A program made the position numbers and the translations under genes. Below the pieces are notes generated by a model that had not been told where the DNA came from, did no database searches, and saw only the letters and a list, made by a program, of their open reading frames with translations. A stretch of 62,018 nucleotides of DNA, filler included, from Kipferlia bialata (taxonomy: Eukaryota), in NCBI GenBank assembly GCA_003568945.1. It is 4 parts of 4 records of this genome, joined end to end, with 100 filler letters (N's around TTAATTAATTAA, not from the genome) between each part and the next. Parts side by side here need not be neighbours in the genome. Positions count along the whole stretch, not along the records: positions 1 to 22,887 come from BDIP01000274.1; 3 more parts are not named here. One strand, written 5' to 3'. This document shows positions 120 through 62,018 of the stretch, in pieces. Positions within the stretch are counted from its first letter, which is position 1, and every line of letters begins with the position of its first letter.

Positions 120-499
120 GTATCAGGGCGTCCCCAAGGCTGCACCTCAGGTATGGGAAGAAGCACTTGAACAATTGGTATTAGTGCATATGTGTTTGGC
201 TGTGTTCTCTAGCATATGTGTGTTTCATGTATTTCCAGTGTCAGTCCAAGAAGCTCAGTAGCTCCCTCTTCTCTCTCCCCCTCTTTCCTTCGCAAATATA
301 TTCGTTCCACCTCTCCTCATCAATCTCCTGTGGCTCTTGGTGCGGCATGCGAGTAGACCACCTGTCTATTTGTCTCTCTTTTATTGACATCTATACTATT
401 CACCTCTTTCTCCCATCATCTATTAGCTTCAGAGTAGTCATGTGCTTGTGCTCACTCATGTCCATCTCATTCTCACCAGGCCCTGGCCCCTTACCCAAA

Positions 500-549
<50 letters not shown>

Positions 550-3500
550 TGTCTCACCAATCAGGCACTGGCCCCGACCTGTAGCGTGTCCATCAGCCAC
601 CGTACGTGCCTTCACACTTCTCTGCCCCCCCCCCCGATTCTCATTCTATTTGTGGTATCTCTTTCTAAATCGTACTCTCTCTCATTCCGTCAATCTATAT
701 GTACATATCTATTCCTCACCCTGATGCTGGATTACTTACACACACATACATGTTCATATATATATGTATATGTACATGTGTATATGGGAATTAGAAGAAT
801 ATACACTAAGGCCCACATACATGTACATCTGTGGAGTCTCACCCCCACGTGACATTGTTCATATATACATATACATAAAGAATTGTATATACTATAAGAA
901 TTTTGTACAGTAAATATATCACCTCACCCCCAGGTGATGGTGACCCACACTTCAGACAGGTCGTGGAGACACAGGTATGTAAGAGATGTGTATATTATGT
1001 ATATCACTACACACCACTACCTCTACACCCCTTAACACCCAGTCCGGTCTCAAGCAGTACCAGAGGTTCTTTATGTACTCTCTATATATATGTTCTTTAT
1101 GTACTCTCTCTCCCTCTACACCCCTAGTTATCTCCCTCTACACCCTTACCACCCAGTCTGGTCTCAAGCAGTACCAGGTCAAGGGCAGAGAGTACACAAT
1201 GTACATTGTGGTGGTACGTATAAATATGCATATATACAAGTATGCATTTGCATATATATCCCTAACTCATATTCCTCTCTACACCCTTGAGAGAGAGTAC
1301 ACATTGTACATTGTGGTGGTACGTATACAAGTACATATATACAAGTGTGTATTTGCATATATACCCCACATTCCTCTCAACACCCTTGAGAGAGAGTACA
1401 CAATGTACATTGTGGTGGTACGTATACCCATAAGTATCCCTACACCCATATAGTCCCTATATACACAATTCATATCATTGTGGTGGTACGCCTCTCTCTC
1501 TCTCTCTCTCCCTGCCTCCTAATTCCCTCCCTGTCATTTATCATTCTGTACGTACGCCCTTATTGCCCTCTACACCCTTAATCCCCAGGTCCCTGATGTC
1601 ACCTCACCAGCCACCATCCAGGCACTCGACGCCATGCACCACAGGTATAACACTCTTTCTCTCTATTGTGGTATTTATATGAATTTTTGTATACATGCGT
1701 AAATATCTTACCCGTAGCCCCCATCCTGATTACCCTATTCTCTCTCCCGTTCCTTTTGTATCTACCTCCTATCAATGTATGTCATATATATATACAGTGT
1801 TCATCCCTAGGCTCCCCCCCCCCCATAATGATGACCCTGTATTTTGATAATACTATTCTGTCTCTCTCTCTCCTTCTATATCTATCTTCCTATCAGTATT
1901 TATACATCTCATCCCTAGGTTCCTCCCCCCCATCATGATGACCCTGTTCACAGACGACAAGGATATGGCCGGGATGCAGGTATCACTATATATGAATTAG
2001 TATATATATATATATATATATAGTATCTAGAGCATGTGCATGAAATGTATATGTACTTTTAGTTACTAATACCTGTTCACAGAGGACAAGGACATGGCTG
2101 GGATGCAGGTACAGTTCTTGCTCTCTCTCTCTCTCTCCCCCTCTACACCCTTAATACCAGGACCATGTGACCACCCACCTTCTTGTGGTGCCTGACACAC
2201 TGGCAGTCACACAGAGGACATTCAGTGCACTGCAGGTAGAGCATATTAATGCATAGTATAGTACATCCATCGTATGTATTAGAAACTGGTGATTAGTTAA
2301 GTATTATCCATTGAAGATAGTTATTATGCTCTAACACTAGTCCATCGCAAGCATCACTATCTATTTATATACTAGGCCTAGTATTATCGAATCTGTTCAT
2401 CCAGTCCATCACCAACAAGTTCCGGTCTTGTATATATTCTAGTATACCTATATATGTGTGTACATATTACATACTGTATGTACAATATATCCTCTGACCC
2501 CCAGTCCATCACCAACAAGTTCTGGTTCGGAGGCATCACCTTCCTTCAGGCCAGGGTGCACAGAGGTATGGATATATGCTAGTATATATACATTTCTATA
2601 GAATACACATGTATGTCATTCATTATATAATTGTTAATAATAATATGGCATTGATACAGATGTGTAAATTCAAGCCTCACCTTCCTACAGGCCAGGGTGC
2701 ACAGAGGTATGTATGGGTATATTTACTATACATAGCACTAGTATAGTATCATATCATGTCGATATATGTATAGTATAGTATTGATAATATGTATTGAGAA
2801 TCTATCACATTCTTACAGGCCAGGGTGCACATTCATACAATGTATATTGTTTATCATAATACTCAGTATACTATTGATGTGTGTGTGAATACTAGTCGGT
2901 GTCAATACATATCTGCACCCTAATTCCAGGCATTCCCTTCTGCCTGGGCATCCCCAACATACTCGCTTACCTCTTCGAGAGCCAGCAGGTATGGATAGGA
3001 TACATCACATCTGCTTAACTCTGTATATATTCACATGTGAGTTCTTACAACCAGGCTGATCTAGGCCGAGACATGCACCATAGTATACAACATTTACACA
3101 CACACACATATATATATACGTACATATATGTATATAAATATGATATACTAATATCCAGGCTGACCTTGCCCGAGACATGCACCAGCGCATTGGCATGTAC
3201 TACAGTGCAGACACACACGCAGCGGCATTCAAGGTATAGATATAAACCTTCTTCTAATATGTACTGGATATAATTGTGCTCTCTATTCTTACGCCCCAGT
3301 ATGCAGCTGATGCACTGAGTGTGTTTCAACAACTATGTACTTATACTTATACATTGTTGTATTACTAGCTATGGCTCTATTGAATCGTGCCTCACCCCAG
3401 TATGCAGGTGATGCCCTGAGTGTCTTCTGTGACACGTGGAACAAGTCGCAGGTAGGATATATATATGTCTATCTATATATAAGTGTAACTATATGTATGA

Positions 3501-6361
3501 AAATGCTCTATGCTACTAGTTTCTTCTGTGACACATGGAACAAGTCGCAGGTATTGAATATATATACATATATGTATATTCTATGTACACCAGTACGTTA
3601 CGTATGTTACGCCTGGAGCAAGTCGTAGGTATTGGGTGTTCACATTCATGAAACATTACTGTTTTGTTAATGAATATAATGATTAATCTGTATATCCATA
3701 TATGTATATTGGTATATCTTACCCCAGGCCTACACCCGCCTTGGTGTGTCACTGGATGCCAAGACACTCCTCAAGGAGGTAAGAATGTGCATGATGTACA
3801 TTAAGAGTTTGAATTCTATGTATACTATGTATACTGTGTATACTAGGTACGACCATTTCTATATGAGTACCATGTATGTATTACCAAATGATATATTCGT
3901 ATCTGACCCTCCCAGCAGCTGCTCGTCTACAAGTATGTACTTAATACCTCTTGTACACTACTGGTATCTTCATCGCTTCATCGCTACTCTCTTTGTATCG
4001 TGTAGGAGTCTCACCCCAGCAGCTGCTCGTCTACAAGCTCACAGGGACACCACTCATCCCAATCGGAGGTACATACAAGTATACCTGCTGTGGATTTCCT
4101 TGGTTCTTCACCAGAATTTGAGTTCTAATCTCCAGAATATGATGTTTGTTCCCATGCATTTCGGTCTCTTTCTCTAATCCCCAGAGTCCCCTGCGCAGAA
4201 GAGAGAGCGGGAGGAGAAGGAGAGAGAGATGAGAGAGAGAGAGAGAGTGCAGCAGGAGGAGAGGCAGAGGAAGGCCTTTGTGGCACTCACACCGGTGGAC
4301 CTGACACCAGAGATTGTGCTGGGTAATCTATCTCTCTACTATACTCTCGTTCCTCCGCACATAACCAGCCCATAACCGGCCCATAATCACCACATTCATC
4401 TCTCTACATATCATTTTTCCCTAGTGTATATATATTAAGAATAATTGTTTATGTTACCCCCAGGTGTCCTCCGTGCTAGGTTGGTACCAATTACTATTAG
4501 TGTACTTAGTAGATTATACATTAATATACATTAGAGCATTCCTTGAAGTAGTAAATAGTAAATTAGTTTGTATATACCTCACCCCCATGTGTCCTCCGTG
4601 CCCACAATCACCACTCGGTCAGGGCACCAGTCACACGGGCACTGCAAGGTATAATTCTTACTGTGTATAGTAATTTTCTAAACTGTGTGTGTATATGTAT
4701 TATTTCTAAACTTTGTATATGTATTAAAATATCTTATATCGTGTAATATATGGTCCATGTCAACCACTCGGTCACCAGTGAGAAGGACACTGCAAGGTAT
4801 ATATATGGTATTATGCCTGACCCTGTTGTATGTACACAAGGACACTGCAAGGTATCATACATTCTGTAATATGGAGTGTTTATCTCCCCGTCTATCCCTC
4901 TTTTTCCCTTATTGCCAGACGTGCTGTCCTCCCGCCGTCCCACCGCCCCCATCCCCGGTCATGCCATGCTCATACTGTGGGGGGCAGAGAGCCAGGTAAA
5001 TGTGTACTATATACACATGTAGATATATATATATATAGTATAGTATAGTAACGTATGGTATACCCCATCCCCGGTCATGCCATGCTCATACTGTGGGGGG
5101 CAGAGAGCCAGGTGTGTATAGTATACATGTATATATAATGTACTATTGTATACTCCATACCGTGTGTAGTAATACACCCTTGCATCAGGTCGGCGTGTCC
5201 CACCTGTATGGCCATGTCCCGATCATTGTTACTATCATATATATCTATCTAAATATATATCTATATACCTACTAGTGTATATATACCTTAACCCTCAGGT
5301 CGGTGTGTCCCACCTGTATGGCCATGTCCACAACAGTGGGGTCACGGCATCAAGTCTCATGGCTGAGGTACTGTATGTGTTCATGTATATATATATATAG
5401 TATATGCTGTTGTATGTGTATAGTGTCATATACAAGTATGTGTCCACAACAGTGGGGTCACTGTATATGTATATATATTAGTGTAAGGATTAATATATAT
5501 ATATATATATATATATACTATATGTCCACAACAGTGGGGTCACGGCATCAAGCTTAATGGCTGAGGTACTGTATGTGTGTATGTATATCCCTTCTCTCTA
5601 GTATACTTGGATATATGTATTCCAAAATACTCTCTCACAATATATATCTCCCTCTAGCCCCCCACATGCCCTTATTACCTTCTCTCCCCCCTCCCCCTCT
5701 ATATATATACAATTGTATATACACATATACATTTCTATATATATGTATACGACCTCACTCCAGCCCACCCCCCATGCCCGAGTTGCCTTCTCTCTCTCTC
5801 TCTCTCCATCTCTCTATATAGTATACCCTTCTTACACTAGCCCACCCCCCATGCCCGAGTTGCCTTATCTCTCTCTCTCTCTCTCCCACTCTCTCTAATA
5901 CCAGCCCACCCCCCATGCCCGTGTTGCCTTCTCCTCTGCTGCTGTCATGGACATGGACAAGGTGGCACTCAAGAAGGTATGGAGTATATGTATTATAGGT
6001 ATATTATATATATATATAGTATATATCATTAATGAATTATATATAGTTGTATATACTGCCTTCTCCTCTGCTGCTGTCATGGACATGGACAAGGTGGCAA
6101 CAAAGAAGGTATGATATACATATTCTAACTAAGGTATATATTTGTATAGTATTATACTATATGTATATTACTCCTCTGCTGCAGTCATGAACATGGACAA
6201 GGTTGCGATGAAGAAGGTTTGATATATGATATATATAGAAATATATGGCTCCTGTAACGTATACATCCTTACCCTCAGAACGCCCTTGCCGCTGAGCCCT
6301 ATGCAACCATGGCCAGACGGATAGGAGAAGTACTCACAGAGGTAACATTATATATACACGC

Positions 6362-6392
<31 letters not shown>

Positions 6393-9300
6393 GAGAGAGA
6401 AAGAGGGAGAATCTATGCCCCCATGGTCGCGTAGGAGATGTACTGACGGAGATATATATTGTATATATAATAATCATGTCTTCCAGATATTTCTCTTTAT
6501 CAGTAGAATTGCACTTACCACTGGAAATTTTTAGTATACTTTTGGCTCACCCTTCCAGTGGGCATCTGCCTCTCTCAAGGTGTCATTGATATCTCTCCCA
6601 TCAGATACGGGTATATATATCGATATCTTTACTCTTCTAACCCCCAGTGGGCCTCTGCCTCCCTCAAGATATCCTTCATATCATCTGCCACATCGTATAT
6701 GCATGTGTATTTATGTATATATCCGTCGTCTCACCCTTCCAGTGGGCCTCTGCATCCCTCAAGGTGTCTGTGGTTATAGCTGGCACCATGGCAGACAGTG
6801 CAAAGTGAGTATTTATACAGGAAATACGATAGAATTTATATGGAACATATAGTATACAGTATAGAGAGAGATAAGTGTCATAGCTGGCAAGATGGCAGAC
6901 AGTCCAAAGTGAGTATATAATAGTAGTATATAGTATATATAGTGAATATAGTACATATAGTACATATAGTACATATTGGTAATATATACAATAATATGTA
7001 TGAATACGCACTGGCCTTGGGATGCACTTCAACATAGCCTCTCTCTCTCTCTCTCGCTTCCATTATAATAATAATATGCTGGGTATCCTCTGACCCCAGC
7101 TGGCGCACTGGCCTTGGGATGCTGCTGCAGCCCTTTGGCAGTGCATGTGCACACGACATCACAGACGAGGTGTGTATACAAATGTATATATGTATTAGTA
7201 TACATTGGTATTTCCTTTACTCCGAGGATTTGTTCTCATCTTTGGACGTTCCCATCATTGCTCAATACTGAGTATTTGCATTTTCTATAACATTAAGATG
7301 TATATATATATGACTTGTTTACATCTGATTATCAGGACCTCCTCCCCTTCCTTGGCCGTGCCGCTGACTACATATCTGGCATGGACCTGCCCACATTCCA
7401 CACAGACAGTAGGGTGGCTAAAGGTACGTTATATGGTGTGTTATGCATTTGCAGTGTGTTACACCTCCTTCTAGCTCTAGCGAGCCCCTAAACCTCTCTC
7501 AGTATGAGGTTATAGTGGTATTTGTTCCATCTCTATAATCACTTTCCCTTTCCGCCAGTCACCTCCTCTGCCCTGACAGAGCAGATTTCTGTCTCTCTTT
7601 CTCTCTCTCGCACCAGACCATGCTGTCGGAGTCACTGGGGAGACTGGCCATACTGCAGGTGTGTGTATAGTATATATACTCTAGTAATAGTTGTGTGTCA
7701 TAGTGTGTTTTGCTATTAGAAACATGCTGTGTGAGTCACTGGGCAGACTGGCCATACTGCAGGTATTTGCAGTAAGTATCATGTGTTATATACTCTATAT
7801 AGAGCAAGACAACGATATGTGTTACCAGACGATGCTGTTAGAGTCACTCGGCAGTAAATATATATAGATTATACATATAGTATTACATATCTAGGTGTTA
7901 TATATCTAGTATGTTCATTCATTTTGTAGAAAATAGAGTCTATACAAAACCCAAATGCCCCACCTCAGGCCCAGTCTACCAGGGCTAATACAGTATATTG
8001 TCATACATTATATAGAGATGATAGAATATGCTCCCTATTAGTGCTGACCCCAGGCCCAGTCTGCTGCGAGGGCCAAGGCTGACAGCCAGAAGAAGAGAGA
8101 GGAGGAGAGGGAGAGAGAGAGAGAGGAGGAGAAGAGAGAGAGAGAGAGAGAGGCGCAGGTGGCAGCTGAGAGGGAGGCCAAGGCTGCCCAGAAGGTGTGT
8201 AGTAGTGTACATTTATACATGCTATGTACTCCTATATGTATAGCAGTACTGATACCGGCAATATCCCAACACTATATTTGTGTGTATGGACAGATATATG
8301 GGTTTATACTGACCACAGGCGAAGGCCAAGGCCGCCCTCCTGGAGAGGGAGAGAGACACTGAGGGAGAGTATGGCGAGACCGACTACATTGAGGACTTCA
8401 TCGACATGCTCTTTGATGCATTTCCACAGGTATCTACGATATATATAGTATATACACTACATCGAAAGTTGGTAGATAGGTTGTCATGTTATTCGTGTTT
8501 ACATATTAATTAGACTTCATCGACATGCTCTTTGATGCATTCCGACAGGTACTATAAGTTTAGAGTATATATACTAAATTGACGAATCTTTATCTACAGT
8601 TCTATTTGTGTTATATAGGACTTCATCGACATACTCTTTGATGCATTCCCACAAGTATCTAATGTACTGTGGTTGGTAGATGTGCAGTTGTGCTAGTCGT
8701 GTATATATTGTACTAACCGATTGTCGATGCATTCCACAGGTACAAGTAGTAAACGTACAATTGAGGGTTTGCTGAGAGTACATAGACGATTTGTATGGTA
8801 TCTTCGTTGATGCCTCTATATATCTTGGAATATCACTCTAGGCCAGCGACAGATATGGGCGATGTTTAGTATGCATCTGTTTCGTATTGTAATATTTGCA
8901 CACATTTTTGTATATACCTTTTATGGATCTCATTCTAGGCCACCGACAGATACCCCCCTGATCCCTTCCCCCAGGAGGTCGTCATACCAAAGTGAGTCTG
9001 TGTGCATATACTGTCAACGTATGTATACCTACTTCCTCTTTCTTTCCACAGGCCCTTATATCAGGTCCACCCTCTATCTTGTTGTGGGTGCCAGATACAA
9101 CGACCAGGAGGCACTCACGGACAACCTGACCGGAGTCGGAATCAGGTATTCCATATATATAAAAAGTATTGTAATATATGGATGTATCATGTATATTATA
9201 TATATACATATATTATGTACGATGATCAGGAGGGACTCAGAAACAACCAAACAGGGGTTGACATTAGGTAATGTACATGCAATATTTCAGTATTATACTA

Positions 9301-11317
9301 CTTCATATTCTGGGGCTCGAAGCATTACCCTCCAGTGCTATATATCCACACCCATAAGAAGGTATGTATACCCTAGTTGTGACGTCTAAACCTAACATCA
9401 GCGTGAGGCATGTCCGTGCGAGTGGTGGCCAGATTGAGAAGATTAGCCAGGGCACAATCAACAGGGCTCAGTGCATAGGTATATATATACATATATATAT
9501 CTATATAATGCTATTATTCTATATTACTCTATATACAATATATACATACTTACATACATACATATGTATACACAATCCTCTCTCCTTCTCTCTCTCTCTC
9601 TCTCCCCCTCTACACCCTTAATGTCAGTCCTGAGTGTGGCTGGTCTGTCCGGGTATGGGGTGGATGCTCTGATAGCTGGTCTCATCAAGACACAGATGGA
9701 AGGGAGGGTACGACATATATACATACATCTATATATATTCAGAAGTATGTATCTCTGAATTTTTGTATACTTTGACTGGTCTCACCAGGACACAGATGGA
9801 GGGCAGGGTATGTACCCTCTCTCTCTCTCTCTCTCTTCAATCTCTACACTCTTTTACCCTGTAGACCATGCACCTCTTTGCCTCTAGGGGTGTAGTGCTC
9901 ACAAAGCCAGAGATCACACCTCTGCACTCGTTCATCGCTAGAGGTACCTAGTCGTTAGTCTTTCTCCCGTCACCTTGTCAAATTCTATTTTCTCTCTCTC
10001 ATTCATGTTTCTAACCCTCCAGCTACCGTGTCCAATGACCATTTCCACCTATTCTCTCTCTCTCTCTCTCTCTCACTCTCTCACTCTCTCTCTCTATATA
10101 TATATAACTCACATCAGCCACCGTGTCCAATGACCATGTACACCTTCTCAACGACATGCACCAGTGCAAGGAGATTGTGGCCAGACAGGTACATAGATGT
10201 ATATATATTGATGTATTATTTACACGAGTGTCAGTATGGTATAGTGTGTATATATAACTATGTATCTTCTGAATGACATGCACCAGTGCAAGGAGTTAGT
10301 CGCAAGACAGGTATACATATATACATAGTGGCATATCTATATCCTGTGTTGGTGTATATATATAATAGTATATTATTATATATATATATATACCTTTTTG
10401 TTTGTTATATGTATATTGTGTTATATTTAGTATATATATATTTAGTATTGGCTAATACATATATATTGTGTGGCCAGACAGGTATGTATAGTACTTAGAG
10501 ATGCATCATATATATTCAGTGATACAGATGATGCTAGATGTAGAATGTTACTAGACAAGTTAGTACTGTATCTGTATACGAAAGAATGAGGGACTCAATG
10601 GGAACCTGTGTTTCTGTCTCTCTTTACGGTATTTTCACTATTTTAGGTGTATCTTCATGCCCTAATCTGTATCGTTACTGACATTCAGCTCATTGACGAG
10701 GTCCGCATAGAGGCAACCCACACCGACCCCAACCTGAGGTACTGTGTATACTTTGTATGTGAATTTATATATATTGTATATTATGTATATTTTTTATACT
10801 GTATATATTTATACTTAGTATGTAATGTTTCTTGTCAATTGTTCTTTCATACGAACACTGAATGTAGTGTATATACACGATAACATATTTAATCGGGCCC
10901 CTCTAACTTCAGGATGTCAACACACACATATCTTGGTATTTAAGTAATTGTTCATTGCACGGTTTTCTAATAACCACAGGACCATTGTCAACAGGCACAT
11001 TGCCCAGCAGAGGCAGAGAGAAGAGGAAAGAGAGCAGAGGCGCATTGCTGAGCTTGCAGAGACTGGTTCCAAGGCTGACTTTGTCGGTCTACCTCTACCC
11101 ACCACTGCAGCTAGGTATACACGCACCCATTATATATATCTCTCTCTATATATATAGATAGAGATACACTCTGCCCACCACTGCAGCTAGGTATGGTCTC
11201 TCTCCCTCCCTCTGTTTCTCAATCTACCCACTAACCCCAGCCCCTCCCCCCCCCAAGTCCCTGCCCCTCCCTGTCATATATTGATTATATCCTTAATACA
11301 TATATATACATACATAT

Positions 11318-11354
<37 letters not shown>

Positions 11355-12346
11355 TGTATACATATACATATACATATCTAACCCCAGCCCCTCCCCTCCC
11401 AAGTCCCTCCCCCTCCCTGTGAATGGAGTGCTCAAGAGGAGTGCCAATCCCCCTCTCTCCTTACCCATACCCGGACTGGCATCTACAACATCTACCTCAG
11501 CTGCATCTACCTCAGCTGCTGTGTCGAAGCCTCTACCCCTACCTGGCACTGGTGCAACACCTAGTACAAGTGGTGCTGTAGCTAGTCCCTCCCTCCCTCT
11601 ACCCACTGGGACACCAGCATCTACAGCTGCCACTGCACCTCTGCCCCTGCCAGTGTCCACATCAATTAGTAGTGCTACTGCTACTCCAGCTGCTGGTGTT
11701 GCAGCAGCTGCAGCATCACTTACTAGGTTAGTCATCTACCAGTGTCCACCCCCAATGTATATGTTGTTACTGCTACTGCTCCAGCTGCTGGTGTATCTCT
11801 CACTAGGTTAGGTAGTGTAGTTTCAAGTACTGCAGCTGTATCCCTTACACGGTCAATCATACTAGTATACATGGAGAACATTCTAGTATTAGTATCAGTC
11901 TAGAGGTCTACACAGATAGTACAATACTGCATGTTGTCTCACCCCAGCAGCGTCCCCACCCTTCCTGTCTATGTCTCCCTATACACTGTGCATATATATA
12001 TATACATACTCATACTCGATATCTTTAGCTATACATAACACACTTCTAACGTCAGCAGCGTCCCCACCCTCCCTGGCTCTGTCTCCCTGTATGGCGGTGC
12101 AGCACTGCGCTTCCTGAACAAAGTGAGGGAGTCCACAACTAAGGAGGGAGAGAGAGAGGGAGAGAGAGAGGGAGAGGTTGTGGCACTTGTCGTGGTACCA
12201 GATTGTATTAAGGGTGCAGCCGAAGAGAATAAGGGTGCAGCTGAGTATGTACAGAGAGACATCTTGGACATGCTGGGTGTGATGGCAGTGGAGGTGGACG
12301 TCAGGCTAGGTAATGTACCATACCATATATATACTCTATATGTATG

Positions 12347-12377
<31 letters not shown>

Positions 12378-15300
12378 GTGATGGCAGTGGGGGTGGACGT
12401 CAGGCCAGGTATGTGCTCTGCCCTAACCCCCCACGCCACCTCTCTCTCTCTTCCTCGCTATATAGGTATATGTATATGTATGTGTGTGTGTATGTTCCTT
12501 ACCAAAGGTCTCTCCACCGTCCTGGGTCCCAAGACTTCTCTTGACTCCCCCTGTGTCCTTGTTCTGCCCCAGTCAGACGTGGAGGGACTCGACAACGGGG
12601 GGACAGAAGCAGGTATGAGGAATATATATATTGAAATATCTCATTATATACATACGTACAATATGAATATTTTGTATTCCTTACTCAAGGCCACTCCCTT
12701 CGTGCTGTCTCCGAGTGCCTGTCCTCTGTGTCATCTGTTCTGGCACCCACAAGTGTGTCAAGGGGGGTATACGCAGGTATTGTTAGTATATATGTAAATG
12801 GTGAGTATACTCCAAGTGTGTCTTCTGTGCTGGTACCTGTCACTAAGGGGGTATATGCAGGTATATATGGCGTGTAGGCTAGCACGCAGTACTAATACGT
12901 GTATATATATTTGTCTCACTCTTCTCACTCTTCAGCCCTCCACCGAGTGGACATGCGCTCTCTGCACCTATGTCTGTTCAGTTCCTTCAGACCCCTTACC
13001 CACTCTGCTACCCAGTCTGACGGGTGTGACAAGCCGTGTGACAAGCAGTCTGAGGGGGTCATTCTACAGCAGTGGACAGCCGCATGCCTCACCAGCTACA
13101 CTCCTGAGGTATGTATAAGAGTGTATATATAGTTCTTATATATATATATATGATATGTATACATTGAGGTAAGAGTATGTGTGTGTCTGCATATATATGT
13201 ACTACTGTGATTGTTGTTATGGTTGTAATATATGTATACTTACAGTAGGAGGAGCCCTGTGACATGACGCCCTCTGCCCTGTGGCCCAAGAAGACACAGC
13301 CACTCCCACTGCCAAAGGTATATATGAAAGTATCAATACAAGTACTGGAATATATATTATGTACATATAATACCCTCTGCCATAATAGTATACATATATA
13401 GGCATGTGTAGTATATGTATATATATATATATATATATATAATACCCTCTGCCCTGTGGCCCAAGAAGACACAGCCACTGCCACTGCCTAAGGTGTGTGC
13501 AATAGTATACACATATATACATGAAAATATGTAATATATATTATGCTGTCTACCTATATACTTACTATCAGGCCCTCTCCCTGCCCTCTGCCCCCTCCAA
13601 GATATATATGAACATCCTCCTATTGATATGACTATAGTACCTACTGACTCCTGATACCACCTGCTTCTCTCTAATCATTAGGCCCTCCCCCTGCCCTCTG
13701 CCCCCTCTCCATAGTGTTGTTACTCATATTCTGTATTTCTCTTTTGTAATGAATTACATATCATATATCTATAATTACTTACTGTCAGGCCCTCCCCCTG
13801 CCCTCTGCCCCCTCCCCTTCCAAGGCACCACTCCCACGCAGCAAGGTATGTATACGGAGTAGTAGTTGTAGTTCAAGAATGACATTAGACTGTCATCTAT
13901 CCAGTGACCCAGGTCCCCTCGCCCAATATTCATATTCTGTTACGTATATTATACACTCACCCCTAGGTCACCTCCCCCCTTGCCCAGTCCGTGTCACTGG
14001 CAGAGGACATACAGCCACAGGTATATACGTATGTATGTGTATAACCGTCGGCTCTATATGTATGGCTCTTGTTAGTATTTGTTACTCACCCCTCAGGTCT
14101 GGGAGGCATTTGAGATGACATTAGCTAGTAAATGGTTTTTTAAAATATAGAAAATGTGTATAGTAATGTACCCCCTTATCTGTAGGTCTGGGAGGCATTT
14201 GAGATGCCACTGGCTACTGTTATGTAATTGAGTCAATACACTATATATATATATATGTATTACATGTATATACATAAGTTCACTCACCCCTTAGGTGTGG
14301 GAGGCCTTTGAGATGCCAGGCTCAGCCTCCATGTTCGATGTCAGGTGTGTACATGTGTACAATTGTGTACATTCATTGTGTATATTAATATGGTATTAAC
14401 TATGGTATTTCGACGTCAGGTATGAAGTCATCTAAATTTGTGTGTATACTATTTGTATACTTCCTATTGACTATGTAAAAGTGACATATTGTATATCTAC
14501 ATCCCGTTAACCCTCCAGGGACGTCTCCTCCCGCATCGACCAGGACCAGGATATACTATTTACTGCCTATATATATACTCTCTCTATATATTACACCCTA
14601 TAACCCCTAGGGACGTCTCGTCCCGTATAGAGCAGGACCAGGAGATCAGCAACCAACCAGTACCTGCACCCGGCAGAATGGCAGGTTGGACCCTTATTAT
14701 ACACAGACTACACCCTTAACACATATACTAGACCCTTTTGTCATGTTTACTAAACCCTTCACATTCCAGACAAGACTGAGTCCTCCCCTGCCTCCGAGGC
14801 AGAGTCTGATAATTTCATTTCTTATAATACTGTATCTTTAATATTGTGTTATGCTATACCCTTACTTTCAGACAAGACTGAGTCCTCCCCTGCCTCAGAT
14901 ACTGAGTCTGAGTCAGTAGAGGAGGAGGAGGAGGATGTGCCTCTCATGCCCAGGGAGCCATACAGGTATCATATCTTTATGTGTATGTTATATACTCATA
15001 TATACATAATACTCCATAATACAGTAAGCTTATATACATGTGCAAATTACTATCAATATCATGCCCAGGGAGCCATACAGGTATTTTAAGACATTTCATG
15101 TGTTATATACTATATGCATAATACTCCACCACCCAAGAGCCTCTCATGCCAAGGGAGCCATATAGGTGTCTTAACATGTTATATACGTTACACACATATT
15201 ATACTATTATATATGAGTATATATGAGTATACTACCAGGGTTCTCTGATGCTAAGGCCCAACCCCTAGCTGAGAGGGATGTCCTCAGCATCAATACACAC

Positions 15301-16312
15301 TCATAGTATATACTATACTGTATATGTATGTATGTATTGTGTATGTGTGACCCTAATTGCTAGGCCCAACTGCGTCCCCCTGTCTGAGAGGGATGTCCTC
15401 AGCATTGATGCCACGGACAAGAAGGACAGGGCAAGGCTGGCCATAGCTAAGGTAGTTTATATATACATATCTGTATCTTTATCTATATATACATTATGTA
15501 GTAGTATATGTGTATAAGTATCGATGCCACGGACAAGAAGGACAGGGCTAGGCTGGCCATAGCTAAGGTAGTATATATATATATATAGTATGTATAGTGA
15601 TATATGGTATATANNNNNNNNNNNNNNNNNNNNNNNNNNNNNNNNNNNNNNNNNNNNNNNNNNNNNNNNNNNNNNNNNNNNNNNNNNNNNNNNNNNNNNN
15701 NNNNNNNNNNNNNCACAGGTATATAACTGTTATATATAAATGTAGTATAATATTGTATATATATATATATGGTATCCATGGTGCAATGAGTGACAGATTG
15801 ACAGGGGGAGGCAGCAGAATACCTAATTGTTACAATACAGGTATTTGTGTAGTATATGTGAGTATGTGTTACATGTATGTTTTTCAGTATTTTGCATGTT
15901 CTATATCCATGAGTGCTAGAGTCACAGGGGGCGATACCATGATACCCCCGCAGTATAGTACATTATATATACACATTTGAATAGTAAGTACTCGCATAAT
16001 CGTCTATCCTCATTCCAGGCTCTGCCACCCCCCAGCATGCCACGGTGTGTGACAAGGAGCACAACATGCTGACTGACTGCCCAGTGCTATTCGTGCACGA
16101 GGAGGATGGGGATTGTACGTATAGTAGTATGTACACAATCACTCACTCAATTGTATATGTAATTAGTAATTGCATGGATATGCACATATTTGTATATATA
16201 TATTTGCTGCCCTGTTTGTACATGAAGTAGGTGGAGGTTGTACGTATATATATATACGTATATATAGATATATATAGATATATTAGTATTTGTAATTGGT
16301 CCATCCCCGCAT

Positions 16313-16347
<35 letters not shown>

Positions 16348-19300
16348 TGCACTCCATATATATAGCAGACTCCTTCCATATCTCACCTCACCATCAGCCC
16401 CATCCCTAGTCGAGTCCCTCAAGTACAAGTACCATGAACATATATGAGTGTATAGATGTTAATGCATTTTAAATGTATATACACTATGTATATACCCTTA
16501 ACCCCCAGCCCCCTCTCTAGTCGAGTCCCTCAAGTACAAGTACACAGGACACCTCAGCCAGACTCTCCTGAAGGTATGGATCAATATATAGATCCTTGAT
16601 AGTTCATCATCACTAAATCAACTGCTATATATTAATATACACATATTTGTTTGTATACATATATGTACGGGGCGACTCAACCAGACCCTCCTGATAGTAA
16701 GAGACAATGTGTTGACTCTGAACATAACCAATCAATTGATGACCATTCATCAAATACCAAATGATCAAGCAGGAAATTGATTTCTCTACTTTCACAATCA
16801 ATCAATTGATGAATATTCATCAATTAATCACTCAGGAGATGGTCCAGACTGGCAGGGTGAGCCCTGTCCTCAACAGACAGACGGGGCAGTACACAGTGCA
16901 CGATAGCAAGCTGAGGTCATATGGATATATAGCTACTGCAATATTACATATACATAGCATACACATATATTGTATGGGACAGACAGGCCGGACAGTACAC
17001 AGTACATGACTCAAAGCTCAGGTATATATATATATGCATGTATACTATATGACATATATACTTGAGTATTAGTATTGTTTGTATTGAACAGACAGACAGG
17101 GCAGTACACAGTCATGGACTCTAAGCTAATGTAATTGTACTCTCTCTCTCGCTCTCTCTCTATATATATCCCTCTACATCCTTAATACCAGGGTGCGTGC
17201 CCTCCCCCTAGGCAGAGGTGTCAGCTCAGTGCTCTATGACAGTCCTCTACCTGTATCTCCAGATGGAGAGGGAGGTGGTGTCAAGGACCCCGAGCCCTCT
17301 CCCATGCCCAACGACTCGCCATTCGACCTGAGGTATTAGTGCACTAATTGTATATACTCTATATTTGTGCTGGGGTATTCTTATATGTGTGTACCCCATG
17401 CCCAACGACTCAGGTAGTCTCTCTCTTTTATCTTTTCTCTCTCTATAATAGTATTGTGATATCTTACCCCGGCCACCTGGCTGATATGGACAAGGAGAGA
17501 GAGAGCATTCATATATGTATATATTACACTCATATACATATCTATAGAAACGCATACATGTATATATTTTGTGGCTAACTCCAGCCACCTGGGTGACATG
17601 GACAAGGACAGGGAGAGCATTCACCTATATATATATATATATATATATGTAAATATACACGCGGGTGTATCTATATGAATACAGATGTCTCACTCCAGCC
17701 ACCGTGGTATTGTATATTTAGATGTATATATATATCAACACCTAACCCCAGCCACCTGGGTGACATGGACAAGGAGAGGGACAAGGAGGCTGAGACTGAG
17801 ACCTGTGAGTGCATGGATGACATTGTACTGGTTGTAGTAGAGAGGGAGATGATGTCAAGGCTGTCACCTATGGTTAAGGTACATATGTATTATGTATATA
17901 TATACATATTCATATATTATTATATGCATGGATGACATTGTACTGGTGGTGGTGGAGAGGGAGATGATGACACGGCTCAGCCCTATGGTCAAGGTATATT
18001 CTGAGATATATATCATACATATCCTATATATAGAGTAATACATCTATATATCGATGACATTGTACTGGTTGTAGTAGAGAGATGATGGGTAGACTCTCTC
18101 CCATGGTCAAGGTAGACTAACCTATAATGACAAAGCTCAGTCCAATAGTATAGGTTTACCAAAACATTCTTATATATGTATAGACCATCGCACGTATGGT
18201 TCTAACTCTAGGCCTGCCTGTCCCGCCCTGTCGTGTCTCTGCTCTGTATATATACACACACAATCATATGTATAGACCTGAATATATTAGTATATGTATA
18301 CATTAAGTGTTGTCTAACGCTAGGCCTGTCTGTCCCGCCCTGGTGTGTCTCTGCTCTGTATCGATAGGGCACCCATTGTCAGCAAGACAGTGTCCAAGGA
18401 GGACAGGGAGAGAGGCGTCGCCTCAGAGGTATGTATCGATACAATTCATATATATGTATATATATGTATACACACACACACATATATAAAAATATATATA
18501 TATATATACACAATATATATTTATACGTCCATGCAATGAGAGCTTCAAAGAAGGACTGAGAGAGACAGGTTGCCTAAGAGGTACCATTTCTTGACGATAT
18601 GTCTACATACCTACTGCATATGCTCTATCTGTACTCACCATCAGGTCCTGTCCCTGCTGACCTCTGTGCATATATACCTCTGTCGATGCTATATATACTT
18701 TAGACTGTATATATCAGTATCTAACTTGTAGGTCCTGTCCCTGCTGACCTCTGTCATCTGTAGTATACAACTTTTGTATATATATATATACCCTGGAATA
18801 TAGTATACAATAACTACTATGTGTCTTCTGACCATCAGGTCCTGTCCCTGCTGACCTCTGTACATAGATATATATACTATCGACTGTATATATCACTATC
18901 TAACATGTAGGTTCTGTCCCTGCTGACCTCTGTGCATAGGTACAGGGAGGGTAAGGCGGCAGACCCCTGGGTGGACAGATGCGTGGTGGCACTGCCTAGG
19001 GTGGATGCAGAGGTATGGGTATTGTGTATACAATACAGTTTGATATGTCTTACCCCAAGATCTCTCCCTGAGGTATATGCCATATATATATATATATGTA
19101 TATCATATGTATAATCAATGAGCAAGTATCTTATCAACAGGACCTGCCCCTGAGGTCAGTGGCTGAGGCAGTGGCAGAGGACAAGGGCGCTAAGGTATAG
19201 TATACAGTGTGTGTAGCATATATGAGTATATGATATAGATGTGATATTCTATGTTATGTGTATATGTATGGCAGAGGCAGTCGCAGAGGACAAGGAGGCT

Positions 19301-20485
19301 AAGGTAATGTATTGCATATATTGCATCTTCACTTGACCTCTATTGACCTTCCTTGACCAATATTGACCCCCCAGGCCCTCCAGCCCTCCTTCATCAGTCG
19401 TGTCGACAGTCTCCCCGGACGTACTAAGCCTAGTAGGAAGAGGAGGATATACACCATAGAGCAGATGCTGGAGTGGGGTGAGTAATGTATATATAATATA
19501 TGTATGGGGGAGGGGGGGGGGAGAGAGAGAGGAGGATATACTCTGTGGCACCTATGCTCTGGGAGTAGTTGTTGTATGTCTACGTATATATATGTGCTAT
19601 TCATAGTGCCTCACCCCAAGGTGCCATGCCCGAGAGCTGGAGACCGCCCACTGTGGCATCACCGCTAGGTACAGTCTGTCTCTCTCTGTCTCTAAATACA
19701 TCACTATATATTTACATTACTATATATACATTGCCACACCTCTCTTACCCCGATAAGTATGTGTATTATTTCTATATACGTTATACCCTTCCTCTCACAG
19801 ATACATATATATTACAACATCATCCATCTCACCCCCCAGGCATGGATGGTGAGCTAGAGGTTGTTGCTGACGGAGAGGGAGAGAGAGAGGGCGACATCCT
19901 CCAGAGATTTGTGGTACGTGGCTCTTCTTCTACACCCTCAATTCCTCTCCTACACCCTTATATCAGGTTCCCGATACTGAGGAGAGCTACAGAATGCTCT
20001 ATCTGGCCCAGGTCGCCAACAAGTACGAGTAGTAACTATTTCATATTTATATTATATATTATATATATTTTCTACATACATATAGATATGTAATATCACA
20101 TTGGTTTGACCCTGGTGTAGATAGTGTATTAGGTATACTTTTATGCATCTCTTATCTTAGGTCCGGTCCCCTCCTCGCCAAGGGTGCCTCCATCCCTTTG
20201 CAATAACTATCCAATTGCATATATACATTAATATAGTATAGTATATCTCTTACTGCTAGGTCCGGTCCCCTGCTTGCCAAGGGTGCCTACCTTATTACCC
20301 AATAACATAGTACATATTAATAATAGTAGAATGTATACATCGGTGTATATATATCTCTTATCCTAGGTCTGGTCCCCCTTGTTATATTTTCTTTCTATAG
20401 TAATAGTATATACATTAATCCTAGGTCCGGTCCCCTACTGGCCAAGGGTGCATCCATCCCAAAGCCACCCAGGCACAAGAGGTAG
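120..20485 (+). CDS. Large multi-exon (~60 short exons) hypothetical protein, 5'-partial, with Glu/Arg-rich and Pro/Ser/Thr-rich segments
   Basis: Hand-spliced GT-AG exons are mostly phase-consistent, e.g. 934-974 (RDGDPHFRQVVETQ), 2505-2565 (SITNKFWFGGITFLQARVHR), 8319-8429 (...DFIDMLFDAFPQ), 17752-17878 (...MMSRLSPMVK), last exon 20425-20485 (SGPLLAKGASIPKPPRHKR*). It crosses an N gap at 15614-15713 and a few junctions (near 240, 4589, 7559) are uncertain. No domain recognised. Confidence 0.75.
1040..1490 (+). repeat. Half-exon echo cluster around exon SGLKQYQVKGREYTMYIVV (1157-1213)
   Basis: Upstream cag|tccggtctcaagcagtaccag at ~1040-1063; downstream agagagtacacaWtgtacattgtggtg|gtacgt at ~1292 and ~1391; cattgtggtg|gtacg at ~1476. 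Confidence 0.95.
15614..15713. other. Assembly gap (100 N) inside the large orphan gene
   Basis: Run of N without the linker motif. Confidence 0.95.
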
Positions 20486-22887: not shown

Positions 22888-22987
22888 NNNNNNNNNNNNN
22901 NNNNNNNNNNNNNNNNNNNNNNNNNNNNNNNTTAATTAATTAANNNNNNNNNNNNNNNNNNNNNNNNNNNNNNNNNNNNNNNNNNNN
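22888..22987. other. Artificial scaffold linker (44 N + TTAATTAATTAA + 44 N)
   Basis: An identical 100-nt construct with stops in all six frames occurs three times in the window. Confidence 0.97.
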
Positions 22988-24754: not shown

Positions 24755-27700
24755 TTAAGGCAGAGGCATAAACACATCGTCCATGCATTCAAAGTTGTCG
24801 CCCTGTTGGAACAGGAGCACACTTCTGATGTCACTCTGCAGTCTATCCTCCACCGCTACACTGTCCTTTACATCAAGTGCCCCAGAACGGATGTCGTCGG
24901 CAATCTGGTCAGTGGCGTTCTGTAAGGAGAGACCAAGTGCGTTCACCTGCGCAACGACGTTGTTCTGGTTGACATTGAGACCGAAATCAAACTGAACGTC
25001 AAAGGACAAGTCATCTCCACACTCGCACCAGCCAACGAGGAAGGTAACGTAGACGTTCTCAAGCTGGCAGCTGGCAAGACCGTTGCCTGAGGCCCCGACC
25101 TGTATGGTAGCAGAAGCAGCAACACTAGAAGTTAGGGTGTCCGGGAGGGTCTCCACCATCGAGACCTGGTTGCAGCTAACACCACCCCCTACAACAACCT
25201 CGTCGTTTAGACCCTCACGCTTGTAGACGACGTTAGACCGTGACTTGGCCGAGGCTGTCTTACTACCCACAGTCACAATCTCCTGTCCTTGTATGTCGGC
25301 GTAGGTGTTGCTAGTGGGGCTTGTTATCTCATCGACTACGTCAGTAAGGGCCTGGTCAAGACCAGTTGGGACAGGGACTCCAAAGTCTACAGCTACGTCC
25401 TCGATTGCGTCGAGTGCTAGGATGAAGAGATCGTGGTCATCGATGCGGTTGTATGCCATTGACTGTGTCTGGATCACTGAGACTGCGGCACCTGTGACTG
25501 CCGCAGTGCACTCAGGTGGGTGGGTCCACGTCATTGTGTGCACACCATACCCAGAGACAGACTCTTCGAGAGGCTCATTGCCCCACACCCACTCATCGTC
25601 GTTGTCCTTGAGGTACACGTTCTTGGCGAAGGCGGAGCCCTTGCCACCGATAAAGTCGTGGTCTGTGAAGAGTATCACAGAGGCTGGTGGGGCGACAGTG
25701 AGGAAGTCATTGCGAGCAATCAGTTCCTGGGAGATACCCGCCTCTATCGTCTCCCTGTCAGTCTCTGTGCCATAGCTCTCAGCAACGGTTACATCGAGCT
25801 GACCGACAGAGTGACCGTCAGGTCTGATCACACTCTCGGCACAGCCTCCAGTCTCTCCGCACTGACACAGATCCTCGTTCACCACCTGTCCGTCTACGAA
25901 GCTGTTACCCTCAACATCGGTGGCCTCATATACTCTCACAGTAACCTCGGGCGTTCCCACTACAAATAGTAGAGAACCGTCTATACCGCAGGGAGACGAC
26001 TCAGGGTAGAGTTCCTGTATGACGATGGGATCCACAGGGAACTCTCCAGTACAAGCGCTGCTTGCTGTCACTGGGAGGAGAGGCACCTCTACGCTACAAG
26101 CTGTCACGACCCTAGTCTCGGGTGTTAGGCCAGTGAGTGTGATATCGTCGAGGGCTACTGCATGGGCCGTCTGATGGACAGCAGCAACACGACCAAAGGC
26201 ATCTGTGCACTTGTAGGTACGGACAACGAGGTTGAAGGGGTACATGGTCTGAGACTCGACCACATCCAGAGATGTGCCCTGTCCGTCTGTACAGGTGACA
26301 TCGGTGGGTGGCAGGGGAGAGGGTATCTCGCAAGGGAACTCTAGAGGTGAAAGTATGTCGGGTATGATTGTCGGGGCAGGGTAGGGGAGGACGAGCTCAA
26401 GGTTGGTGTCTTCACAGCTAGGGAAGAGTCCATGGAATGACTGATCCTCTACACCCTCATCGTGCTGCACCACGATAGTAAAGGGACCGCCGCACAGAGG
26501 GGGGAACGTGTAGTACCCGAACTCGTTTGAGACGGTTGTGTCACCAGTCTCAATTACTCTGACAACGGCGCCAGAGACCGGCAGCAGACCTGCCTCGGCA
26601 ACTACAAAGCCCTCGATTGTCTTGTCGTCACAGTCTGTGGTAGGGGTGCAGGTCAACACAGCGTCTACGTTCTCGACAAGACCACACTCGGGCACGTCGA
26701 CCTCAACATCCTCGGTGATGTAGGCAGGGTGGGTGAACTCGACGCGTAGGTTGGTAAACTCACCCGCAAATGGAGTGAGATCGATGAGGTGCTTACCCTG
26801 AGGGTCATTCGGGAAGTAGCTGGATATTTGACTAACTATTAAAAGTACAATCTGTAACCACTTACATTGGTATCGGTGATGGTACACTCGAGTGGGTCGG
26901 TGGCCGCAGGAGCATAGACACAGACGGTGACACTTGGCAGAAGCTGACCTGGCGGTAAGGCTCAAAACATACAGACTGAAACTGACATACAGGGTGTAAT
27001 GTGCACTATTCCTACCTGTTCTCTCTGCCGTCACCTGACCACTAATACCAAAGAACTCACAGGGTATGTCAATAGGAGTCAGGACAGCATCAATGTTCTC
27101 GACAAGGCCACACTCGGGCACTGAGACCTCAACATCCTCGGTGATGTAGGATGGGTGGGTGAACTCAACGCGTAGGTTGGTGAACTCACCGGCGAAGGGG
27201 GTGAGGTCGATGACATACTCTCCCTGAGAGTCAATCGCATAATGTGTATGTAGATGAGATACTGAGGGAGAACCTAAGGAAAACACTTACACTGGCGGTG
27301 GTGATGGTACACTCAAGTGGGTCGATGGATGCAGGAGCATAGACACAGGCGTCAGCATTTGGTATCGGCTGACCTGGGATGAGACTCAGCATTCAATTGA
27401 GAGTCACATATATGTATCAGACCATTGGTCTGAGACCAATACATAATTCGAGACCTGAAGTAGCTGACAACAATAGTAAGTAATATACCTGTCATCTCAT
27501 CCTGGACCTGGCCACTGACCCCAAAGAACTCACAGGGGACATTGATAGGAGTCAGGACAGCATCAATGTTCTCGACGATACCACACTCAGGTACGGAGAC
27601 CTCAACATCCTCAGTGAGGTAGACAGGGTGAGTGAACTCGACGCGTAGGTTGGTGAACTCTCCAGCGAAGGGGGTGAGGTCGATGGTATAGTCGCCCTGA

Positions 27701-28953: not shown

Positions 28954-28988
<35 letters not shown>

Positions 28989-37443: not shown

Positions 37444-37474
<31 letters not shown>

Positions 37475-38703: not shown

Positions 38704-38741
<38 letters not shown>

Positions 38742-39627: not shown

Positions 39628-39673
<46 letters not shown>

Positions 39674-60649: not shown

Positions 60650-60684
<35 letters not shown>

Positions 60685-61922: not shown

Positions 61923-61958
<36 letters not shown>

Positions 61959-61995: not shown

Positions 61996-62018
61996 GGGGG
62001 GGGGGGGGAGAGGGAGTG

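What the first reader, a model, noticed from the sequence alone, without database searches (positions are those of the whole stretch)
5368..5904. Decoy donors and acceptors make nested ('matryoshka') introns
Seen: the real donor at 5368 (gctgag|gtactg) is followed by an identical-context decoy donor at 5566, then three decoy acceptors (AG at 5656-57, 5762-63, 5839-40, the last two with branch-like ctcac/cttac) before the real acceptor at 5903-04. The correct mRNA needs the outermost pair. Inference: either strict exon definition ignores well-formed inner sites, or inner pairs are spliced first and the intron is removed stepwise (nested or re-splicing).
Basis: partly seen in the sequence, partly recalled or inferred. 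Interest (0 to 1): 0.78.

Follow-up and report, generated by a model that had tools for sequence, protein, structure and literature searches.

The report
Introns stuffed with recoded exon edges
In the free-living protist Kipferlia bialata, 68 of 107 introns examined hold short copies of the neighbouring exon's edge, most with an intact splice signal that the one spliced RNA contig seen ignores; the copies differ from their exons mainly at silent codon positions, so they likely came from other working versions of the gene by unequal exchange rather than being nested introns.

Summary
The sites are real and at the stated coordinates. They are not free-standing decoys: each is a partial copy of the flanking exon edge with its splice site. 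The window is Kipferlia bialata, gene KIPB_001825. An RNA-type contig joins the outermost pair. The pattern is window-wide: 146 copies in 68 of 107 introns, with strict polarity. Obligatory nested splicing is not supported: 44 of 60 introns with intact copies have one type only, and the two types co-occur at chance level. Outermost use fits a shortest-exon (exon definition) rule. The class is known: amphioxus 'mirages' and the human F7 intron 7 repeat; this scan has 34 such notes on other DNA. I found no report of one feature: copies differ from their exon at 23% of four-fold but 3.9% of zero-fold sites (ratio 5.9, 95% 4.6-7.6), where a neutral duplicate gives about 2. The likely source is unequal exchange with diverged working alleles, which are not visible in the sequenced DNA. 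No raw RNA reads were available.

The parts
5299..5367 (+). Real exon (69 nt, phase 0-0) of KIPB_001825, upstream of the intron
   Evidence: RNA-type contig X2 record 9 covers 5296-5365; peptide found in P0003
5368..5904 (+). GT-AG intron, 537 nt, removed between its outermost sites
5441..5461 (+). 21-nt exact copy of the middle of the upstream exon, without a donor
5522..5587 (+). Copy of the last 44 nt of the upstream exon (5522-5565) with unused donor GT at 5566-67 and about 20 nt of intron start; 3 differences in 2 codons, both codons synonymous
   Evidence: on DNA contig X1 record 2
5656..5684 (+). Decayed acceptor copy: AG 5656-57 plus a 25-nt copy of the downstream exon start (4 differences, shifted register, no branch motif)
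5754..5797 (+). Unused acceptor (CTCAC, AG 5762-63) plus 33 aligned nt of the downstream exon start; 1 synonymous difference
   Evidence: 5754-5780 on X1 record 2
5831..5874 (+). Unused acceptor (CTTAC, AG 5839-40) plus 33 aligned nt of the downstream exon start; 2 third-position differences (1 synonymous)
   Evidence: not shown by a listed contig (skipped repeat zone)
5905..5976 (+). Real exon (72 nt, phase 0-0) downstream of the intron
   Evidence: X2 record 9 covers 5903-5974; peptide in P0003
5977..6278 (+). Neighbouring intron with two donor-type copies only (GT at 6109 and 6217): no inner pair is possible
   Evidence: copies on X1 records 3 and 4; crossed by X2 record 9
6342..6742 (+). 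Intron with two intact acceptor-type copies (exon-copy starts 6559 and 6648) and one donor-type copy that has lost its GT
   Evidence: on X1 record 5, 6413-7583, 0 other letters
120..20485 (+). Gene A = KIPB_001825 (1610-aa hypothetical protein, no Pfam family at cut-off); 74 copies in 41 of 56 introns examined
30841..45520 (-). Gene B, calcineurin-like metallophosphoesterase by recalled motifs (GNHDD, HGH, GHTH); 67 copies in 23 of 29 introns
   Evidence: ORF-continuous model; counts; family label recalled, not searched
42461..42757 (-). Young 115-nt head-to-tail array (spacer plus exon edge, 90% matches), showing that units expand as tandem repeats
24755..30273 (-). Gene C (paralogue of KIPB_001317, 58% identity); 2 copies in 1 of 14 introns
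59913..61819 (-). Gene D, CMGC kinase resembling PRP4 kinase (label recalled); 3 copies in 3 of 8 introns

Best explanation
The extra donor and acceptors in 5368-5904 are unused partial copies of the two flanking exon edges; the intron is likely removed in one step because the spliceosome likely pairs the closest acceptor and donor across each exon, and the copies were likely made and refreshed by unequal exchange with diverged working versions of the same gene. Steps: (1, shown) each copy is an exon edge plus its GT or AG, lying inside the intron on its own exon's side. (2, inferred) A roughly 110-nt duplication across one boundary survives because the outer site still borders a complete exon; other duplications of that size would change the mRNA. 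(3, partly shown) Once founded, a unit expands by misaligned exchange between exon and copy; sister copies share their far breakpoint. (4, inferred) The exchange partner is often another chromosome whose exon had been coding on its own, so the copy arrives with synonymous differences and an unalignable spacer, then decays slowly. (5, shown for mature RNA, mechanism inferred) Only the outermost pair is joined; using a copy would make an exon longer than nearly all real ones, and most such RNAs would carry a stop or a frameshift.
For: Polarity: 66 of 82 upstream-exon copies reach the exon's 3' end and 2 its 5' start; 56 of 64 downstream-exon copies reach the 5' start and 0 the 3' end; donor-type precedes acceptor-type in 64 of 66 pairs. 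Each copy adds about 103 nt to the intron. Sister copies end within 3 nt of each other in 26 of 49 pairs, against 20% in permutations, 0 of 5000 reaching the observed value. Six arrays of period 58-128 are still tandem repeats. Mismatches by codon position are 70/54/259. Zero-fold sites differ at 114 of 2928 and four-fold at 179 of 778, ratio 5.9, cluster bootstrap 4.6-7.6; 15 simulations of a neutral copy beside a constrained exon, with the same detection, give 1.8-2.1. Copy against copy: 52 of 1307 and 83 of 337. Changes private to the nearest copy are 23 synonymous and 12 not, where neutral change gives 24-28% synonymous; 10 of 184 four-fold sites show three states. Four-fold changes are GC/AT-balanced (60 and 57), zero-fold ones AT-biased (59 and 30), as for coding divergence plus some decay. 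Copied sites are nearly as strong as real ones (29 of 63 donors and 22 of 49 acceptors score at least as high as their own real site; 46 of 49 acceptors keep a branch-like motif), so site strength cannot choose. Real exons have median 75 nt, 8 of 113 reach 150 nt; using the nearest intact copy would give median 188 nt, only 3 of 75 under 150. Fornicates lack NHEJ and Rad51A and rely on homology-directed repair (PMC8516963, passages).
Against: The supposed donor alleles are not seen: laid at 85% likeness, run X1 lists other letters only at 8197-8297, from one other contig, so this DNA looks uniform here; table 8 of that call was cut (1230 rows not shown). No population data. Nearest copies are somewhat closer to the exon than farthest ones (16 against 7 of 37, p=0.037), which a simple time ladder also predicts. 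Amino-acid changes are only marginally conservative (p=0.05). Unalignable spacers could come from fast microsatellite change alone. Exon definition is inferred from geometry; a published presence table did not find U1-70K, U2AF1 or SF1 in K. bialata, though it found SR proteins, U2AF2, U1A, U1C and Luc7 (PMC6679479 supplement). Decay of mis-spliced RNA could hide use of the copies. RNA evidence is one contig of a run only guessed to be RNA; genes B-D have no RNA or annotation check.
Confidence: 0.55

Rival explanations
1. Obligatory nested (matryoshka) splicing: the inner donor and an inner acceptor are joined first, then the outer intron is removed.
For: In this intron the inner sites are well formed and define spans of 92, 198 or 275 nt, within the size range of copy-free introns (53-414 nt). 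Donor-type copies precede acceptor-type ones in 64 of 66 pairs.
Against: 44 of 60 introns with intact copies have one type only and co-occurrence is at chance; the RNA contig crosses three such introns. No GT-start or AG-end enrichment for re-splicing. The inner intron interrupts no splice element of the outer one. The order follows from duplication geometry.
Confidence: 0.05
2. Plain neutral 'mirage': tandem duplication within one chromosome lineage, then neutral decay.
For: Polarity, unit length and shared breakpoints fit; six arrays are still tandem repeats; nearer copies are slightly less diverged; AT-biased change at zero-fold sites shows decay.
Against: This model caps the four-fold/zero-fold ratio near 2 (1.8-2.1 simulated) against 5.9 observed, or 7.8 after trimming copy ends. 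Copy-private changes are also mostly synonymous.
Confidence: 0.08
3. The copies are themselves under selection to keep the protein code, as repair templates that are often converted back into the exon, or as parts of translated isoforms.
For: It would explain the synonymous bias without outside alleles, and no allele is seen in X1. 10 of 113 intact copies could be used without a stop or frameshift.
Against: 38 of 113 are in frame, as chance gives; 10 of 38 are stop-free against 90 of 515 for random intronic pieces (no formal test run). 5 copies carry stop codons and 19 of 23 indels are not multiples of 3. By my reasoning, conversion frequent enough to purge amino-acid changes would also erase the 23% synonymous difference. 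The RNA contig carries the real exons' letters, not the copies'.
Confidence: 0.14
4. The source was a since-lost second subgenome or paralogue set (old hybrid or polyploid), with mitotic exchange only and no sex.
For: Gives two coding lineages in one cell; X1 holds one contig matching 8163-8333 with 18 differences, so pieces of this gene exist elsewhere.
Against: Three states at 10 of 184 four-fold sites and equal exon-copy and copy-copy distances (23% and 25%) suggest more than two sources. The search with exon 12057-12308 found only the gene's own protein among 679 candidates.
Confidence: 0.15
5. Assembly artefact: alleles or reads stitched in tandem.
For: The draft has local faults: 23 letters in 7557-7655 are missing from both the DNA and the RNA contig. 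X1 may be the sample the window was assembled from. The 5840 copy is not shown by a listed contig.
Against: Separately assembled X1 contigs carry copies and real exons in one piece (6413-7583 with 0 other letters; 5528-5780; 6070-6346). Contig ends at 5084, 5353, 5938, 6070 and 6086 fall exactly where a 31-mer graph must branch if both copies of the 31-, 43- and 51-nt repeats exist.
Confidence: 0.03

Closest known systems
Amphioxus 'mirages' (Adh3, troponin C, globins BflGb6 and BflGb9, PGBD5; PMC3087553 and PMC3902484, passages read)
   Same: Copies spanning an exon-intron boundary, either boundary, many keeping AG or GT, with regular splicing unaffected; unit lengths overlap (10-160 bp there, about 64-175 nt here); unequal crossing-over proposed there too.
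   Different: Here 68 of 107 introns in four genes of a fornicate protist, not single animal loci. Units are mostly not minisatellite-like: intron-side identity falls to control level within about 13 nt (acceptor) or 28 nt (donor), and only 4 of 113 have near-identical 40-nt flanks. The synonymous bias is not mentioned in the passages read; the original Adh3 paper is not in the library and was not read.
Human F7 intron 7 37-bp repeat (PMC1557585; abstract and Discussion read)
   Same: Identical functional pseudo-donors downstream of the real donor stay silent; only the most upstream is used.
   Different: One locus, donors only, near-identical units. It does not explain choosing the last of several acceptors, which this window needs in 37 introns.
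Fungal stwintrons and nested introns (PMC6616335, PMC8469720; search listing and abstract starts only)
   Same: An inner GT-AG pair inside an outer one.
   Different: In stwintrons the inner intron interrupts the donor, branch point or acceptor of the outer one and must go first. Here all outer elements are intact and most introns have no inner pair.
Recursive splicing at AG|GT ratchet points (recalled; listing only)
   Same: Unused-looking acceptors inside an intron.
   Different: Needs a donor regenerated at the junction; the downstream exon here starts CCC and no GT enrichment exists. Introns here are 53-783 nt.
Intron gain by tandem duplication of an AG|GT proto-site (Rogers model, as cited in PMC3087553)
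   Same: Exon-like sequence inside an intron after duplication.
   Different: It predicts downstream-exon sequence first and upstream-exon sequence last; 64 of 66 pairs show the reverse.

Membership tests
Mirage (exon-intron boundary duplication) | Repeat spans an exon-intron boundary and lies in the adjacent intron | tested here: met
   122 of 146 copies reach the boundary end of their exon; 113 keep GT or AG
Mirage (exon-intron boundary duplication) | Copied splice signals do not disturb the mature mRNA | tested here: met
   One RNA-type contig crosses five copy-bearing introns at the outer sites; rare use not testable
Mirage (exon-intron boundary duplication) | Head-to-tail minisatellite-like units, similar over their whole length (81-100% in BflGb6) | tested here: inconclusive
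   Met by 6 arrays; not met by most copies, including the finding's donor copy, whose spacers are unalignable (4 of 113 near-identical flanks). Hence filed as a variant.
Mirage (exon-intron boundary duplication) | Copy-number instability between haplotypes or cells | not testable with these tools
   Only one sample is served (X1 = X2)
Stwintron / obligatory nested intron | Inner intron interrupts a donor, branch or acceptor of the outer intron | tested here: not met
   Outer donor 5368 and acceptor 5904 with CTAAT are intact in DNA
Stwintron / obligatory nested intron | An inner donor-acceptor pair is present wherever inner sites occur | tested here: not met
   44 of 60 introns have one type only
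Stwintron / obligatory nested intron | Splicing intermediate lacking the inner intron | not testable with these tools
   Only contigs could be laid; they drop rare forms
Recursive splicing | Junction regenerates a donor (AG|GT) | tested here: not met
   Exon 5905 starts CCC; GT start in 9 of 37 against 18 of 70
Mutually exclusive duplicated exons | Complete exon copies with both splice sites | tested here: not met
   0 of 64 acceptor-type copies reach the exon's 3' end; median 48% of the exon is copied

The most novel reading that the evidence does not exclude
Kipferlia introns are a genome-wide archive of former alleles: every splice boundary is a birth-and-death array fed by unequal recombination between working alleles about 20% apart at silent sites. 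A single haploid-looking genome would then record hyperdiversity and cryptic sex in a metamonad, and its reduced spliceosome would run on a strict shortest-exon rule that ignores tens of thousands of perfect inner sites.
Probability: 0.35. Interest if true: 0.85.

Novelty: new variant of a known kind. Interest (0 to 1): 0.6.

Why it matters
First, it offers a large natural test of splice-site choice. Copied sites as strong as the real ones sit 64-175 nt away in 60 of 107 introns, in short introns where pairing across the intron would be expected to pick the inner pair; existing K. bialata DNA and RNA reads could test exon definition in a deep-branching lineage with a reduced spliceosome. Second, non-coding copies that have diverged like coding sequence need two coding lineages at once, so one genome may report past allelic diversity and recombination in a group where sex is hard to show. 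Third, the same test can be run on amphioxus and sea urchin mirages, whose origin is called unclear in PMC3087553. Fourth, about 16% of intron bases here are exon-derived (4578 of 29471) and each copy adds about 100 nt, a route to intron growth. The headline claim of nested introns is not what matters.

Tried and rejected
No whole genome is held for this window, so no genome-wide census was possible. No RNA holder was listed on record; X2 is RNA by guess, though its record 9 skips introns. The second laying (X2 alone, 4380-7960, likeness 88) laid 1 record on two microsatellites and not the spliced contig, so it says nothing about inner junctions. In one search X2 has no cover in 5437-5603, which is no evidence of absence; 3 X2 joints at repeats were dropped by the tool and 15 joint rows were not shown. 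The first protein search (21202-21918) gave one weak unnamed hit. Pfam gave no family at cut-off for P0003, so gene A's function is unknown. The automatic gene finder took several copies for exons; I replaced its output by hand-curated models. Left out of all counts: introns around the N gap at 15614-15713, the stretch upstream of 45520, genes at about 21-24 kb and 46-59 kb, and 61820-62018. The exon at 7559-7658 was entered as two pieces because of the 23 extra letters. Weak copies under score 24 are missed. Rejected: re-splicing rescue, productive alternative splicing, decayed mutually exclusive exons, Rogers-type intron gain, cDNA origin (copies keep intron-side GT or AG). Literature searches that found no report of this pattern in Kipferlia or of synonymous bias in such copies; 'duplicat' occurs 0 times in the genome paper's main text. 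Scan look-ups by place were empty, as was one for synonymous mirages.

Full report
OBSERVATION. Every coordinate in the finding is right. The donor at 5566 shares 67 nt at 93% with the real exon end and donor at 5368. The three inner AGs are each followed by a copy of the start of exon 5905-5976. So the 'decoys' are partial exon copies that bring their splice site along. A sixth copy, 5441-5461, has no donor.

IDENTITY. Exon 12057-12308 matches KIPB_001825 of Kipferlia bialata at 100%; its longest contig is 22887 nt, and the window's N run after the first gene starts at 22888. I built exon models by hand for four genes, all with continuous frames. 56 of 58 exon peptides of gene A occur verbatim in the NCBI protein, including both exons around the finding. 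That annotation is AUGUSTUS with RNA hints (PMC5874029, methods section), so it is supporting, not experimental, evidence.

IS IT REAL DNA, AND WHAT IS SPLICED? In one search the DNA-type run X1 gives contigs over 5084-5353, 5528-5780, 5938-6086, 6070-6346 and 6413-7583 with 0-1 other letters. Five contig ends fall exactly where a 31-mer graph branches if both copies of three exact repeats exist. X1 may be the assembly's own sample, so this excludes an assembler fault, not a sample peculiarity. The 5840 copy lies in a skipped repeat zone. The RNA-type run X2 has one 1720-nt contig whose consecutive pieces are 4917-4992, 5296-5365, 5903-5974, a 63-nt unlisted piece matching exon 6279-6341 in length and bin depth, 6741-6804, 7100-7167, 7334-7421 and 7557-7655. 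The outermost pair is used. A second laying failed to place this contig, so rare inner junctions remain untested.

CENSUS. Local alignment of each exon against its two adjacent introns found 146 copies in 68 of 107 introns; 3 of 606 unrelated pairs reach the threshold. 113 copies keep GT or AG in register. Polarity is nearly strict: 66 of 82 upstream-exon copies reach the exon's 3' end (2 its start), 56 of 64 downstream-exon copies reach the 5' start (0 the end), and donor-type precedes acceptor-type in 64 of 66 pairs. Copy-free introns have median 121 nt and each copy adds about 103 nt. The nearest copied site lies 76-175 nt (donor) or 64-167 nt (acceptor) from the real one. Density differs by gene: 41 of 56, 23 of 29, 1 of 14 and 3 of 8 introns.

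NESTED SPLICING. It is not needed and shows no trace of selection. Of 60 introns with intact copied sites, 23 have donors only, 21 acceptors only and 16 both (Fisher p=0.30). The RNA contig crosses three one-type introns. Neither exon-initial GT nor exon-terminal AG is enriched. The inner pair interrupts no element of the outer intron, which is the defining feature of stwintrons (abstract starts). The nested look follows from geometry: when a boundary is duplicated, only the outer site still touches a whole exon.

HOW THE OUTER SITES WIN. Strength does not decide: mean 9.9 against 9.0 bits for donors and 10.3 against 9.3 for acceptors, with 29 of 63 and 22 of 49 copies scoring at least as high as their real site on a matrix trained on real sites; 46 of 49 copied acceptors keep a branch-like motif, against 95 of 106 real ones and 137 of 1181 other AGs. 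Pairing across the intron would pick the innermost span (median 115 nt, like copy-free introns). First-come choice explains donors, as in human F7 (PMC1557585, Discussion), but not the last acceptor. A shortest-exon rule explains both: real exons have median 75 nt with 8 of 113 at 150 nt or more, while the nearest intact copy would give median 188 nt, 3 of 75 under 150. This is inference. A published table finds SR proteins, U2AF2, U1A, U1C and Luc7 in K. bialata but not U1-70K, U2AF1, SF1 or Prp40 (PMC6679479, supplement file 10 read whole). Decay of mis-spliced RNA may contribute: 10 of 113 copies could be used without a stop or frameshift, none in the finding's intron.

THE UNEXPECTED PART. 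Copies differ from their exons like coding sequence. Mismatches by codon position are 70/54/259 over 1418 codons, pN/pS 0.18. Zero-fold sites differ at 114 of 2928 (3.9%), four-fold at 179 of 778 (23%); one copy per exon side gives the same (76 of 1890, 115 of 505). The ratio is 5.9 (bootstrap by exon side 4.6-7.6) and holds in the three parts of gene A and in gene B; genes C and D have too few sites. In one chromosome lineage only one of exon and copy is coding at any time, which caps the ratio near 2; 15 simulations with the same detection gave 1.8-2.1. Copy against copy gives 4.0% and 24.6%. Changes private to the nearest copy are 23 synonymous to 12 not; to the farthest, 24 to 24. Meanwhile intron-side similarity fades within 13-28 nt, even for the 8 copies at 97% or more identity over 25 nt or more. 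Sister copies share far breakpoints (26 of 49 pairs within 3 nt; 20% by permutation) and six arrays are still tandem repeats. The simplest reading is array growth by misaligned exchange between an exon and a copy, often across chromosomes carrying diverged working alleles. Fornicates lack NHEJ and Rad51A and keep two Dmc1 paralogues (PMC8516963, passages), which fits homology-driven repair but proves nothing here.

AGAINST THIS READING. No diverged allele shows in X1 over 3600-8600 (with a cut pieces table). Nearer copies are a little closer to the exon (16 against 7 of 37). Amino-acid changes are barely more conservative than random (p=0.05). A lost subgenome or selection on the copies could give the same bias. 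Genes B to D rest on my models alone.

KNOWN RELATIVES. An earlier scan note pointed to amphioxus 'mirages'; I checked the passages in PMC3087553 and PMC3902484. They describe boundary-spanning tandem repeats that keep AG or GT and do not disturb splicing, with unclear origin. The scan holds 34 such notes in at least 7 genomes, so the class is neither new nor new to the scan. The Kipferlia case works like a mirage and meets two defining features; whole-unit similarity is met by few copies and instability could not be tested, so I file it as a variant. My searches found no report of it in Kipferlia nor of the synonymous bias. The original Adh3 paper and the supplements of PMC3087553 were not seen and may bear on that.

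VERDICT. Observation confirmed; nested splicing unlikely (0.05 as the obligatory route); one-step removal between the outermost sites likely (about 0.8); allelic-exchange origin about 0.55. New variant of a known kind, interest 0.6, carried by the density and the codon signal, not by the matryoshka idea.

Noticed in passing
window 4323-4648 (+): In-frame 60-nt exon 4589-4648 has CAT instead of CAG at its acceptor, while a 13-nt copy upstream (4464-4476) has a normal CAG. X2 bin depths fit inclusion of 4589-4646 by arithmetic (13 and 45 letters); the NCBI model skips it. Either a GT-AT intron beating a canonical copy, or a base error in the draft.
   Followed up: partly
window 7557-7655: 23 letters of the window are missing from both the DNA contig and the RNA contig; without them one 77-nt exon keeps the frame. 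Likely a draft error, which the NCBI model works around.
   Followed up: partly
window 8163-8333: A second X1 contig at single-copy depth matches this exon end, intron and next exon start with 18 differences, the 11 listed all in the intron: a related segment elsewhere in the genome.
   Followed up: no
window 43912-44643 (-): Four donor-side copies all stop 10 nt before the present exon end and are followed by a GT in the shorter version, as if they record an exon 9 nt shorter than today's.
   Followed up: no
window 42461-42757 (-): In a young 115-nt array the spacers are nearly identical, but the second copy differs from the exon at 8 codons, all synonymous: a chimeric unit, as unequal exchange predicts.
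   Followed up: partly
window 24755-30273 (-): Gene C has short introns almost free of copies (1 of 14) and three tandem exon pairs of 83 and 208 nt coding a repeated domain; copy density differs strongly between genes.
   Followed up: no
window 59913-61819 (-): Kinase gene resembling the splicing kinase PRP4 (label recalled) also carries copies; two more acceptor copies lie at 61860-61990, outside the modelled introns.
   Followed up: no
window 22932-22943, 45917-45928, 59698-59709: Three scaffold joints are 44 N, a 12-nt spacer and 44 N; the two read directly (45917-45928, 59698-59709) are a TTAA repeat. A join marker, so neighbouring pieces may not be adjacent in the genome.
   Followed up: no
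all modelled acceptors: The branch-like motif sits very close to the acceptor: 81 of 95 at 6-7 nt from the intron end, with no long pyrimidine tract.
   Followed up: partly
window 15614-15713: An exon probably lies in this N gap: a donor follows at once and exon-like pieces lie at about 15780-15950.
   Followed up: no
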